Source: the human T2T-CHM13v2.0 reference genome, Homo sapiens
NCBI RefSeq assembly: GCF_009914755.1
Contig: NC_060930.1
Reading direction: 5' to 3' (one strand)
Length of the DNA stretch: 64,000 bases
The notes beneath the pieces were generated by a model, which worked only from the letters and a program-made list of their open reading frames with translations, did not search any database and was not told the origin of the DNA. Numbering within the stretch: position 1 is the first letter of the stretch; every line of letters begins with the position of its first letter. Position numbers and translations under genes: made by a program. Positions 26,791 to 34,500 of this stretch are shown here, one piece after another.

Positions 26791-27472
26791 AAAAATAATT
26801 TAATTAATTTTAAGTACCGGGATACATGCTCAGGATGTGCAGATTTTGTTACATAGGTAAATGTGTGTCATGGTTGTTTGCTGCACCTATCACCCCATCA
26901 CCTTGGTTTTAAGCCCAACATGCATTAGCTATTATCCTGATGCTCTCCCTCCCACTGCCCCTCTCACAGGCCCAGTGTGTGTTGTTCCTCTCCCTGCGTC
27001 CATGTGTTCTCATGGTTCAGCTCCCATGAATAGGTGAGAACATGTGGTGTTTGGTTTTCTATTCCTGTGTTAGTTTGCTGAGGATAATGGCTTCCAGCTC
27101 CATCCATGTCCCTGCAAAGGACATGATCTCATTCCTTTTTATGGCTGCATAGTATTTCATGGTGTGTATGTACAATATTGTCTTTATTCAGTCTATCATT
27201 AATGGGTATTTAGGTTGATTCCATGTCTTTGCTATTGTGAATAGTGCTGCAATGAATATACACCTGCATTTATCTTTATAATAGAATAATTTTTATTCCT
27301 TTGAGTATATACCCAGTAATTGGATTGCTGGGCCAATTGGTTTTTCTGATTTAGGTCTCTGAGAAATCTCCACACTATTTTCCACAATGGTCAAACTAAT
27401 TTATATTCCAATCAACAGTGTAAAAGCATCCCTATTTCTCCACAGCCCTGCCAGCATCTATTGTTTCTTGAC
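26791..27472 (-). mobile_element. Older L1PA (roughly L1PA10-13) 3' UTR and ORF2 end; 3' part of the element continuing at 31599
   Basis: gatacatgctcaggatgtgcag...cataggtaaatgtgtgtcatgg. It breaks at gtttcttgac and resumes with the same motif at 31599. Confidence 0.93.
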
Positions 27473-27483
27473 TTTTTTTTTTT

Positions 27484-29293: not shown

Positions 29294-31598
29294 TTTTTAT
29301 TATTATTATTATTATACTTTAAGTTTTAGGGTACATGTGCACAATGTGCAGGTTAGTTACATATGTATATATGTGCCATGCTGGTGTGCTGCACCCACTA
29401 ACTCGTCATCTAGCATTAGGTATATCTCCTCATGCTATCCCTCTCCCCTCCCCCCACCCCACAACAGGCCCCAGAGTGTGATGTTCCCCTTCCTGTGTCC
29501 ATGTGTTCTCATTGTTCAATTCCCATCTATGAGTGAGAACATGCGGTGTTTGTTTCTTTGTCCTTGCGATAGTTTACTGAGAATGATGATTTCCAATTTC
29601 ATCCATGTCCCTACAAGGGACATGAACTCATCATTTTTTATGGCTGCATAGTATTCCATGGCGTATATGTGCCACATTTTCTTAATCCAGGCTATCGTTG
29701 TTGGACATTTGGATTGGTTCCAAGTCTTTGCTATTGTGAATAGTGTCCCAATAAACATACGTGTGCATGTGTCTTTATAGCAGCATGATTTATAGTCCTT
29801 TGGGTATATACCCAGTAATGGGATGGCTGGGTCAAATTGTATTTCTAGTTCTAGATCCCTGAGGAATCGCCACACTGACTTCCACAATGGTTGAACTAGT
29901 TTACAGTCCCACCAACAGTGTAAAAGTGTTCCTATTTCTCCACATCCTCTCCAACACCTGTTGTTTCCTGACTTTTTAATGATTGCCATTCTAACTGGTG
30001 TGAGATGGTATCGCATTGTGGTTTTGATTTGCATTTCTCTGATGGCCAGTGAAGATGAGCATTTTTTCATGTGTTTTTTGGCTGCATAAATGTCTTCTTT
30101 TGAGAAGTTCCTGTTCATATCCTTTGCCCACTTTTTGATGGGGTTGTTTGTTTATTTCTTGTCAATTTGTTTGAGTTCATTGTAGATTCTGGATATTAGC
30201 CCTTTGTCAGATGAGTAGGTTGCGAAAATTTTCTCCCATTTTGTAGGTTGCTGTTCACTCTGATGGTAGTTCCTTTGGCTGTGCAGAAGCTCTTTAGTTT
30301 AATTAGATCCCATTTGTCAATTTTGGCTTTTGTTGCCATTGCTTTTGTCATTTTAGACATGAAGTCCTTGCCCATGCCTATGTCCTGAATGGTAAAGCCT
30401 AGGTTTTCTTCTAGGGTTTTTATGGTTTGAGGTCTAATGTTTAAGTCTTTAATCCATCTTGAATTAATTTTTGTATAAGGTGTAAGGAAGGGATCCTGTT
30501 TCAGCTTTCTACATATGGCTAGCCAGTTTTCCCGGCACCATTTATTAAATAGGGAATCCTTTCCCTATTGCTTTTTTTTCTCAGGTTTGTCAAAGATCAG
30601 ATAGTTTTACATATGCGGCATTATTTCTGAGGGCTCTGTTCTGTTCCATTGATTTATATCTCTGTTTTGGTACCAGTACCATGCTGTTTTGGTACCAGTA
30701 CCATGCTGTTTTGGTTACTGTAGCCTTGTAGTATAGTTTGAAGTCAGGTAGCGTGATGCCTCCAGCTTTGTTCTTTTGGCTTAGGATTGACTTGGCGATG
30801 CAGGCTCTTTTTTGGTTCCATGTGAACTTTAAAGTAGTTTTTTCCAATTCTGTGAAGAAAGTCATTGGTAGCTTGATGGGGATGGCATTGAATCTATAAA
30901 TTACCTTGGGCAGTATGGCCATTTTCACGATATTGATTCTTCCTACCCATGAGCATGGAATGTTCTTCCATTTGTTTGTATCCTCTTTTATTTCATTGAG
31001 CAGTTGTTTGTAGTTCTCCTTGAAGAGGTCCTTCACATCCCTTGTAAGTTGGATTCCTAAGTATTTTATTCTCTTTGAAGCAATTGTGAATGGGAGTTCA
31101 CTCATAATTTAGTTCTCTGTTTGTCTGTTATTGGTGTATAAGAATGCTTGTGATTTTTGTACATTGATTTTGTATCCTGAGACTTGGCTGAAGTTGTTTA
31201 TCAGCTTAAGGAGATTTTGGGCTGAGACAATGGGGTTTTCTAGATATACAATCATGTCGTCTGCAAACAGGGACAATTTGACTTCCTCTTTTCCTAATTG
31301 AATACCCTTTATTTCCTTCTCCTGCCTAATTGCCCTGGCCAGAACTTCCAACACTATGTTGAATAGGAGTGGTGAGAGAGGGCATCCCTGTCTTGTGCCA
31401 GTTTTCAAAGGGAATGCTTCCAGTTTTTGCCCATTCAGTATGATATTGGCTGTGGGTTTGTCATAGATAGATCTTATTATTTTGAGCTACATCCCATCAA
31501 TACCTAATTTATTGAGAGTTTTTAGCATGAAGCGTTGTCGAATTTTGTCCAAGGCCTTTTCTGCATCTATTGAGATAATCATGTGGTTTTTGTCTTTG
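29294..31598 (-). mobile_element. Young 5'-truncated L1PA (L1PA2-4-like), 2.3 kb
   Basis: Near-consensus ORF2 RT and C-terminal translations ([43 protein letters not shown]), 3' UTR G-tract and (TAA)n tail. ORF2 is broken by stops and frameshifts. Confidence 0.97.
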
Positions 31599-34500
31599 GT
31601 TTCTTGACTTTTTAATAATCGTTATTCTGAGTAATATGAGATGATATCTTATTGTGGCTTTGATTTGCATTTCTCTAATGATCAGTGATGTTGAGCTTTA
31701 TTGCATATGTTTGTTGGCTGCATAAATGTCTTCCTTTAAGAAGTGTCTGTTCATGTCCTTTGCCCACTTTTTAATGGGGTTGTTTGTCTTTTTCTTGTAA
31801 ATTTGTTTAAGTTCCTTGTAGATTCTGGATATTAGACCCTTTTCAGATGATTGCAAAAATTATCTCCCATTCTGTAAGTTGTCCATTCACTCTGATAATA
31901 GTTTCTTTTGCTGTGCAGAAGCTCTTAGTTTAATTAGATCCCATCTGTCAATTTTTGCTTTTGTTGCAATTGCTTTTGACATTTTCATCATGAAATATTT
32001 GCTCGTGCTTATGTTCTCAATGGTGTTGCCTAGATAGTTTTAAGTTTTACATTTAAGTCTTTAATCCATCTTGAGTTAATTTTTGTATAAGGTGTAAGAA
32101 ACGGGTTCAGTTTCAATTTTCTTCATATGGCTAGCCAGTTTTCGCAACACCCTTTATTAAATAGGGAATCCTTTCCCCATTTGTTTTTTGTCAGGTTTGT
32201 CAAAGATTAGATGTTGCAGATGTGCAGTCTTATTTCTGAGATCTCTATTCTGAGATCTCTATTCTGAGATCTCTCTCTGATTTCTGAGATCTCTATTCTG
32301 TTCCATTGGACTGTGTGTCTGTTTTTGTACCATGCTATTTTGGTTACTGTACCTTTGTAGTATAGTTTGAAATCAGGTAGTGTGATGCCTCCAGCTTTTT
32401 CTTTTGCCTTAGGATTGTCTGGGCTATAGGGGCTCTTTTTTTAGTTGCATATGAATTTTAAAGTAGTTTTTTTTCTAATTTTGTGAAGAATTTCAATGGT
32501 GGTTTAATGAAAATAGCATTTAATCTATAAATTACTTTGAGCAGTATGGTCACTTTCATCATATTGATTCTTCCTATAGATGAACATGGAAGGTTTTTCC
32601 ATTTGTTTGTGTCTTCTCTGATTTCCTTGAGCAGTGGTTTGTAGTTCTCCTTGAAGAGGTCCTTCACTTCCCTGGTTAGGTATTCCTAGGCATTTTATTC
32701 TCTTTTTAGCAATTGTGAATGGGCGTTCATTCATGAATTGGCTCTCTGCTTGTCTAATGTTGGTGTCTAGGAATGCTTGTGATTTTTACACATTGATTTT
32801 GTATCCTAAGGCTTTGCTGAAAATTTATCATCTTAAGAAGCTTTTGGGCTAAGTCAATGCAGTTTTCTAGATATAGACTACTGTCATCTGCAAATAGAGA
32901 CAGTTTGACTTTTTCTTTTCCTATTTGAATATGCTTTATTTATTTCTTTTGCCTGATTGCCCTGGCCAGAACTTCCAATACTAGGTTGAATAGGAGTGGT
33001 GAGAGAGGGCATCCTTGTCTCATGCCAGTTTTCAAGGGGAATACTTTCATTTTTTGCCCATTCAGTATGATATTGGCCGTGGGTTTGTCATAAATGGCTT
33101 TTATTATTTTGAGATATGTTCCATCAGTATCTCATTTATTGACAGTATTTAACATGAAGGAATGTTGAATTTTATTGAAGGCCTTTTCTGCATCTATTGA
33201 GATAATCATGTGGTTTTTGTCTTTAGATCTGTTTATGTGATTAATTATGTTTATTGATTTGTGTATGTTGAACCAGCCTTGCATCCTGGGAATGAGGCTT
33301 ACTTGGTCATGGTGAATAAGCCTTTTAATGTGCTGTTGGATTTAGTTTCCAGTATTTTATTGAGGATTTTTGCATCCATGTTCATCAGGAATATTGGCCT
33401 GAAGTTTTCATTTTTGTTGTATCTCTGCCTGGTTTTGGAGTCAGGATAATGCTGGCCTCATAAAATGAGTTAGGAAAAAGCAACTCCTTCTCAATTGTTT
33501 GAGATAGTTTCAGAATAAATGGTGCAAGCTCCTCTTTGTACCTCTGGTATAATTCAGCTGTAAATCTGTCTAGTCCTGCGTTTTTTGTTTTTTTTTTTAT
33601 TTGGTTGGTAGGCTATTTATTACTGTCTCAATTTCAGGACTTGTTATTGGTCTATTCAGGGATTCAACTTCTTCCTGGTTCAGTCTTGGGAGGGTGTATG
33701 TTTTCAGGAATACATCCATTTCTTCTAGATTTTCTAGTTTATTTGAATGAGGTGTTTATAGTATTTTCTTATGGTTGTTTGTATTTCTGTGGGATCAGTG
33801 GTTGTACCCCCTTTATCATTTTTTATTGTGTCTATTTGATTCTTCTTTCTTTTTTCTTTATTAGTCTATTTAGGGGTCTATCTATTTTATTTTATTTTTC
33901 AAAAAAATGATTCCTGGATTCACTGGTTTTTTGAAGGGTTTGTCCTATCTTATCTTCTTCATTTCTGCTCTGATCTTGATTATTTCTTGTTTTCTGACAG
34001 CTTTGGGGTTTGTTTGCTCTTGATTCTCTAGTTCTTTTAGTTGTGAGGTCAGGGTGTCCATTTGAGATCTTCCTAACTTTTTACTGAGGGTATTTAGTGC
34101 CATAAATTTCCGTCTTAACACTGCTTTAGCTGCATCCCAGAAATTCTGGTACATTGTCTTTTTGTTATCGTTAGTTATAAAGAATGTCTTGATTTCTGCC
34201 TTAATTTCACTATTTACCCAGGAGTCATTCAGGAGCAGGTTGTTCAATTTTCATGTAGTTACGTGGTTTGAGTGAGTATTTGATTGTGCTGTGGTCTGAG
34301 AGAATTTTTGTTATGACTTCAGTTCTTTTGCATTTTCTAAGGAGTGATTTACTTCCAACTACGTGAACAATTTTAGTGTAAGTGCCATGTGGCACCAAGA
34401 AGAATGTATATTCTGTTGTTTGTGGGTGAAGAGTTATTTAGATATCTATCAGATCCACTTGATGGAGAGCTGAGTTCAAGTACTGAATGTCTTAGTTAAT

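What the first reader, a model, noticed from the sequence alone, without database searches (positions are those of the whole stretch)
27463..31613. Young L1PA with a 1.8-kb 3' transduction inserted into an older L1
Seen: the older L1 breaks at gtttcttgacttttt (27463-27477) and resumes at the identical 15-mer (31599-31613), followed by AA, the canonical TTTT/AA endonuclease site. Between the copies, read on the minus strand, are a truncated L1PA (31598-29294), its (TAA)n tail, 1.8 kb of unrelated DNA including an MLT1 LTR, an ATTAAA signal (27513-27508) and a new poly(A) 24 nt later. This is the established signature of L1 3' transduction. It predicts that 27484-29293 exists elsewhere, downstream of the source L1 site, beginning (aaa)agtaacgtcatgac.
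Basis: partly seen in the sequence, partly recalled or inferred. Interest (0 to 1): 0.72.

Follow-up and report, generated by a model that had tools for sequence, protein, structure and literature searches.

The report
L1 transduction whose parent has vanished
A jumping gene (L1) copied 1.8 kb of DNA from another part of human chromosome 6 into this spot, likely about 15 million years ago; the donor site holds no L1 today, so the copy likely records a parent element that was later lost, a known and fairly ordinary kind of event.

Summary
An exact 15-bp duplication (27463-27477, 31599-31613) at a TTTTT/AA site splits a near-full-length old L1. Between the copies lie a 5'-truncated 2.3-kb younger L1, an (AAT)n tail, 1,810 bp of non-L1 DNA, ATTAAA and, 24 nt on, an 11-A run.

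The predicted source exists once, at C6:22,597,559-22,599,381 (3.8% divergent). No L1 lies within 17.6 kb upstream of it, and the shared sequence starts at an endonuclease-type T/AAAAA site. Best reading (0.82): a 'parentless' L1 3' transduction from a source allele that never fixed, likely 13-20 Myr old, L1PA4/L1PA3-like (names recalled).

One point against: the source start matches the L1 tail plus the first 7 nt of the duplication over 10 nt. A template-switch chimera or a nested second insertion therefore stays possible (about 0.13 together). No sibling transductions were found. Parentless transductions are in print for dogs and non-human primates. I found no paper on this locus, but could not see the relevant supplementary lists. 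Ape orthologues, which would decide it, were not available. New member of a known kind; interest 0.3.

The parts
27463..27477 (.). Target-site duplication, copy at the 3' end of the insertion
   Evidence: Exact 15-mer, two copies in the window; 15-nt overlap of the host halves on intact L1s
27473..27483 (-). Second poly(A): 11 A, 5 shared with the duplication
   Evidence: the source has only A5 here
27508..27513 (-). ATTAAA polyadenylation-type signal, 24 nt before the A run; also present at the source
   Evidence: such a hexamer lies 10-30 nt upstream of 5-7% of all positions
27484..29293 (-). 1,810-bp segment copied from C6:22,597,559-22,599,381 (+)
   Evidence: 68 substitutions in 1,809 aligned sites, 4 small indels
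28062..28594 (+). Old LTR-like repeat inside the copied segment (MLT1-like and its + orientation are recalled readings; limits are those of the multi-copy matches)
29294..29313 (-). Tail of the L1, (AAT)5 then A5; its last 8 nt also match the source
29294..31598 (-). 5'-truncated L1 (end of ORF2 and 3' UTR), 2,305 bp, frames broken; intermediate L1PA4/L1PA3-like (names recalled)
   Evidence: 3-nt microhomology (AAC) at the 5' junction
31599..31613 (.). Target-site duplication, copy at the 5' end, followed by AA (TTTTT/AA)
31599..37281 (-). Host L1, 5' part (5' UTR, ORF1, most of ORF2), about 79-82% identical to the younger lineage; L1PA8-like by recall
26790..27477 (-). Host L1, 3' part

Best explanation
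This is a 4.1-kb insertion made of a truncated L1 plus 1.8 kb copied from a site 45.8 Mb away on the same chromosome that now holds no L1, most likely a 3' transduction from a parent L1 that was later lost. Shown: the duplication, the endonuclease-type target, the continuous host, the single source copy, and the lack of an L1 there. Inferred steps: (1) a full-length L1 inserted at the T/AAAAA site at C6:22,597,553/4; (2) its transcript ran past its own weak signal and three AATAAA and one ATTAAA of the flank, and ended 24 nt after the next ATTAAA, by polyadenylation or by priming on the genomic A5; (3) target-primed reverse transcription at TTTTT/AA in the old L1 copied 1.8 kb of flank and 2.3 kb of L1, then truncated at a 3-nt microhomology; (4) the daughter survived in the human line while the L1-bearing source allele was lost by drift, selection or lineage sorting, leaving the empty allele.
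For: Duplication, target motif and host continuity. One source copy, 3.76% divergent, 95% CI 2.9-4.7%. The shared sequence begins right at the L1 tail and at a T/AAAA start, which makes up about 0.4-0.5% of positions. L1 and segment are of compatible age: the L1 is 3.8-3.9% from its two nearest of 19 relatives; non-CpG branch 1.85% against 1.34% per branch, P=0.15. An (AAT)n tail running straight into AAAAAG is also seen in relative L020. Parentless sources are common in print: 17 of 18 (PMC7980453), 24 of 27 (PMC13141329), and nearly all non-human primate calls (PMC4862182).
Against: The parent L1 is not seen. The source start equals the L1 tail end plus the first 7 nt of the duplication (10 nt). 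That context holds at 4 of 708 T/AAAA sites in held sequence, two of which are the source itself, held twice, so under this model it is a coincidence of roughly 0.3%, noticed after the fact. Before matching the CpG rule the L1 branch looked longer than the segment's (2.08% against 1.34%, P=0.04). The tail is short (20 nt A/T) and both ends of the segment sit on genomic A5 runs. No sibling transduction was found. An intact pre-insertion site could not be proven.
Confidence: 0.82

Rival explanations
1. Template-switch chimera: ORF2p copied a cellular RNA from the 22.6-Mb region from its poly(A) for 1.8 kb, then jumped by AATAAAAA pairing onto the 3' end of an L1 RNA. No L1 was ever at the source.
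For: 8-nt identity between L1 tail and source and no separate poly(A) between them; no L1 at the source. Same-orientation two-RNA insertions are described in cells (PMC11702581, section 7).
Against: Needs an unspliced transcript ending there, for which I have no evidence. The switch point falls on an endonuclease-type site. Such chimeras are much rarer than transductions (own knowledge). It does not explain the extra GT match to the duplication.
Confidence: 0.07
2. Two steps: the L1 inserted first with the 15-bp duplication. Later a retrocopy of the 1.8-kb RNA (non-coding transcript or orphan transduction) inserted into the L1's own 3' duplication, making a 7-bp duplication (AAAAAGT) and joining by 10-nt microhomology.
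For: Accounts for the full 10-nt identity and for AAAAAGT on both sides of the segment. The L1 branch is somewhat longer than the segment's.
Against: Needs a second insertion at exactly the same nick site and an unusually long microhomology. The age difference is not significant with a matched CpG rule (P=0.15).
Confidence: 0.06
3. A true transduction whose source L1 fixed and was later removed precisely by recombination between its duplications, or is missing only in this haplotype.
For: Gives the same sequences as the best explanation.
Against: Precise removal is rare compared with loss of an unfixed allele (own knowledge). Nothing here points to it.
Confidence: 0.03
4. DNA-level capture: a strand between two endonuclease nicks at the source, already extended by L1 cDNA, was joined to the target while the source was repaired empty; or the 22.6-Mb copy is itself an insertion.
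For: Both ends of the segment lie at T/AAAAA motifs, and a 7-nt A-rich repeat flanks the source copy (read by eye).
Against: ATTAAA at the right distance and six extra A fit an RNA route. The source copy has no poly(A). No third locus exists.
Confidence: 0.02

Closest known systems
L1 partnered 3' transduction (Moran 1999, Goodier 2000, Pickeral 2000, Szak 2003: recalled and seen only as citations; definition read in passages of PMC3024322 and bioRxiv 2021.07.12.451456)
   Same: L1 3' end, tail, unique flank with its own signal, second poly(A), all within one target-site duplication at an endonuclease site; a second genomic copy of the flank without the poly(A).
   Different: No parent L1 at the source. 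At 1.8 kb it is long against the short-read polymorphic set (median 63 bp, maximum 997 bp, method-limited; PMC9311842).
'Parentless' 3' transductions (PMC7980453, PMC13141329; class 1 sources in PMC4862182)
   Same: The transduced sequence maps to a site with no adjacent L1.
   Different: Those are recent polymorphic insertions whose parent may still segregate. This one is about 3.8% diverged, so the parent is likely extinct in humans.
Two-RNA chimeric insertions (U6-L1 type; PMC11702581 section 7)
   Same: Two same-orientation RNA-derived parts within one duplication, with junction microhomology.
   Different: Here the L1 is the 5' part with its complete 3' end, and the junction is an endonuclease-type site of the source.

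Membership tests
L1 3' transduction | One target-site duplication enclosing L1 and flank | tested here: met
   15-bp exact, host continuous
L1 3' transduction | Endonuclease consensus at the target | tested here: met
   TTTTT/AA
L1 3' transduction | Complete L1 3' end directly followed by non-L1 sequence | tested here: met
L1 3' transduction | Flank has a second genomic copy lacking the poly(A) | tested here: met
   C6:22,597,559-22,599,381; A5 at the source against A11 here
L1 3' transduction | Polyadenylation signal and non-templated poly(A) at the new end | tested here: inconclusive
   ATTAAA 24 nt upstream (chance 5-7%); only 6 A outside the duplication, 5 possibly templated
L1 3' transduction | Parent L1 directly upstream of the source | tested here: not met
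   No L1 in 17.6 kb upstream in this assembly; other genomes not available
Parentless 3' transduction | Source has no adjacent L1 and starts at a plausible insertion site | tested here: met
   AAAAT/AAAAAG
Parentless 3' transduction | Source is the intact pre-insertion allele, or a filled allele exists elsewhere | not testable with these tools
   No primate orthologues; the search for an old repeat spanning the junction was negative
L1PA3/L1PA4 subfamily | Diagnostic positions against curated consensus sequences | tested here: inconclusive
   Against 19 genomic relatives: older-type at 4 and newer-type at 2 of the 6 columns that split my two groups; subfamily names recalled, no Dfam or RepeatMasker
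Template-switch chimera | A transcript ending at the source poly(A) site independent of an L1 | not testable with these tools
   No expression or poly(A)-site data; no Rfam match in 24.8 kb of source and copy

The most novel reading that the evidence does not exclude
The insertion is a false transduction: an unannotated intergenic RNA was retrocopied and joined to an L1 3' end by 8-10 nt of pairing (template switch, or a nested insertion into the L1's own duplication), so no parent ever existed. If so, some 'parentless transductions' used to count lost source L1s never had a parent.
Probability: 0.13. Interest if true: 0.55.

Novelty: new member of a known kind. Interest (0 to 1): 0.3.

Why it matters
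It gives, to within a few bases, the address of an active ape-era L1 that is not in this human genome (C6:22,597,553/4). Ape assemblies could show it as a lineage-sorted insertion. Old parentless transductions as a class would let one estimate how many source L1s were lost rather than fixed, which single-genome surveys of surviving elements cannot see. The locus itself has no sign of function: the segment carries no annotated gene in the hub's table, only three short ATG frames of 58-95 aa and no Rfam match.

Tried and rejected
1. An L2 remnant spanning the source junction, seen by eye, would have proved an intact empty site. A profile from 20-28 genomic copies of an L2-tail-like repeat gave no significant hit there (best E 0.1, elsewhere), and single-sequence searches gave only E of 2 or more. 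Dropped.
2. The 22-bp tandem duplication in the L1 (30662-30715) as a lineage marker: present in 9 of 19 relatives across all sub-lineages, so recurrent. The search likely favoured such copies.
3. Sibling transductions: none with the first 242 bp (2 of 2 candidates were source and copy), the junction, or 2 kb over the 3' end. A 20-mer with up to 2 mismatches gave 15 matches against 52 for the control. I inspected 1 of the 13 other matches (C4; no L1 tail beside it), so very short siblings are not excluded.
4. Closer siblings of the intermediate L1 type (121 exact 42-mer matches) could not be fetched. The age test therefore rests on 19 best hits from 40 scored of 17,448 candidates, which favours low-divergence copies.
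5. No host duplication of 7 nt or more was found between the host's two flanks.
6. The bacterial promoter scan is irrelevant here.
7. Szak 2003, Pickeral 2000 and the journal version of Hoyt 2022 are not held.
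Full report
Observation. The window is C6:68,386,001-68,450,000 of the own genome. The 15-mer at 27463-27477 recurs exactly once, at 31599-31613, followed by AA. Aligned to three intact L1 relatives, the host half on the right ends and the half on the left begins with exactly 15 nt of overlap (3 of 3). The host is therefore one element split by an insertion with a 15-bp duplication at TTTTT/AA. It runs on the minus strand from about 37281 to about 26790, so it was near full length, and it is 75-82% identical to the younger L1. 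L1PA8-like is my recalled label. On the minus strand the insert reads: 2,305 bp of L1 starting at a 3-nt microhomology with the duplication, (AAT)5 A5, 1,810 bp of non-L1 DNA, and 11 A, with ATTAAA 24 nt before them.

Source. Searching the genome with the 1,810 bp gave, among 20 of 20 scored candidates, itself, one full-length hit at C6:22,597,559-22,599,381, and 18 short 68-90% hits confined to two stretches of an old LTR-like repeat. Copy and source differ at 68 of 1,809 sites (3.76%, CI 2.9-4.7%; K2P 3.9%; non-CpG 2.7%), with four small indels and balanced CpG decay, 11 against 9. Similarity stops at both ends of the segment. The source has only A5 where the copy has A11 and continues into unrelated DNA, so the 22.6-Mb copy is most likely the original.

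The missing parent. BLAST of the younger L1 and of 5.7 kb of the host L1 against 22,580,001-22,606,499 found no L1 upstream. The only trace was a 57-bp, 74% piece 3.5 kb downstream on the other strand. The shared sequence begins at AAAAT/AAAAAG, an endonuclease-type site; T/AAAA starts make up 0.4-0.5% of positions. This is what the empty allele of an L1 insertion site would look like. I tried to prove the site intact by finding an ancient repeat across it, and failed.

Age and type. Among 19 relatives (the best 19 other than itself, of 40 scored from 17,448 candidates) the L1 is 3.8-6.8% distant, nearest 3.8-3.9%. In the tree it falls outside the starred clade of the ten newer-type copies. 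At the six columns that split my newer and older groups it has the older state at four and the newer state at the two 3'-most. A 42-mer carrying this mixed state has 121 exact matches genome-wide, control 0. I read it as intermediate between L1PA4 and L1PA3; these names and their ages (about 18 and 12.5 Myr) are recalled. PMC5237266 (passages) gives 20.4 Myr for L1PA5 as the upper end of this lineage. With recalled neutral distances of about 3% to orangutan and about 6.5% to macaque, 3.8% suggests 13-20 Myr. The L1's non-CpG branch was 2.08% against 1.34% per branch for the segment (P=0.04). After dropping one ancestral site and four sites in the element's own CpG context, to match the rule used for the segment, it was 1.85% (P=0.15). 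The ages are compatible, with a lean towards an older L1.

Mechanism. The simplest account is a read-through transcript from a full-length L1 at the source. It would have passed three AATAAA and one ATTAAA present at the source and ended after the next ATTAAA, which has the most T-rich downstream 50 nt of the five internal signals (36% against 22-26%). It was then copied by target-primed reverse transcription into the old L1 and truncated. The filled source allele was later lost. Every step involving the parent is inferred.

What counts against it. The source start, AATAAAAAGT, equals the end of the L1 tail plus the first 7 nt of the duplication. In 222,832 bases of held non-target sequence (both strands), 98 of 708 T/AAAA sites are preceded by AA, 15 read AAAAAGT, and 4 do both, two of them being the source itself held twice. 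A template switch onto an L1 RNA explains 8 of the 10 nt. A nested second insertion with a 7-bp duplication explains all 10. Same-orientation two-RNA insertions occur in cells: nine two-transcript insertions of both orientations are reported in PMC11702581 (section 7 read). I keep these rivals at 0.07 and 0.06, because each needs an unannotated RNA plus a rare event, whereas transduction with a lost parent is common, and I noticed the coincidence after the fact. These weights are my judgement, not a computation. The short tail is not unusual: uninterrupted A/T runs in 17 relatives span 2-51 nt against 20 here, and L020 has the same (AAT)n-AAAAAG form. No sibling transductions were found.

What is known. 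Halo et al. (PMC7980453, passages) found 17 of 18 dog transductions 'parentless'. PMC13141329 (passages) found only 3 of 27 next to an L1. Tica et al. (PMC4862182, passages) saw a full-length donor for 3 of 6 human calls and almost none in chimpanzee, orangutan and macaque. Hoyt et al. (bioRxiv 2021.07.12.451456, passages) list 183 top-confidence L1 3' transductions in CHM13 and lower tiers in Table S13, which I could not see; this locus may be there. Also seen as passages: PMC9311842, PMC3024322, PMC4083085, bioRxiv 2024.08.27.596794 and PMC13192797. A search for transduction, LINE-1, 6p22.3 and 6q12 (band names recalled) returned 0 papers. The listings showed no title on this locus. Szak 2003 and Pickeral 2000 were not available, and no supplements were read.

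Verdict. It works like an L1 3' transduction. The one defining feature not met in this genome, a parent L1 at the source, places it with the parentless kind, with a modest chance of being a chimera that mimics one. New member of a known kind; interest 0.3.

Noticed in passing
window 30662-30715: A perfect 22-bp tandem duplication in ORF2 of the younger L1; the same duplication is in 9 of 19 relatives from different sub-lineages, suggesting a recurrent slippage site.
   Followed up: partly
window 26790 and 37281: The near-full-length host L1 has no recognisable target-site duplication of 7 nt or more, and its 3' end runs into a T run rather than an A tail.
   Followed up: partly
window 32234-32294: A 14-bp unit repeated about three times, plus a fourth partial copy, inside the host L1.
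   Followed up: no
window 58993-61128 and 53851-54893 (+): Two more primate L1 3' parts (89% and 80% identical to the younger L1), inside the span of the predicted lncRNA LOC105377843; the first ends in a (TA)n array.
   Followed up: no
window 2987-3703: A 700-bp degenerate TA-rich tandem array.
   Followed up: no
L011 1975-2116 (C6:22,589,974-22,590,115): A 57-bp inverted repeat, 89% complementary with a 28-nt loop, 7.5 kb upstream of the source; looks like a local foldback duplication.
   Followed up: no
L014 (C9:10,151,035-10,153,337): Another L1 of similar age whose 3' flank is older L1 sequence, so likely also an L1-in-L1 insertion.
   Followed up: no
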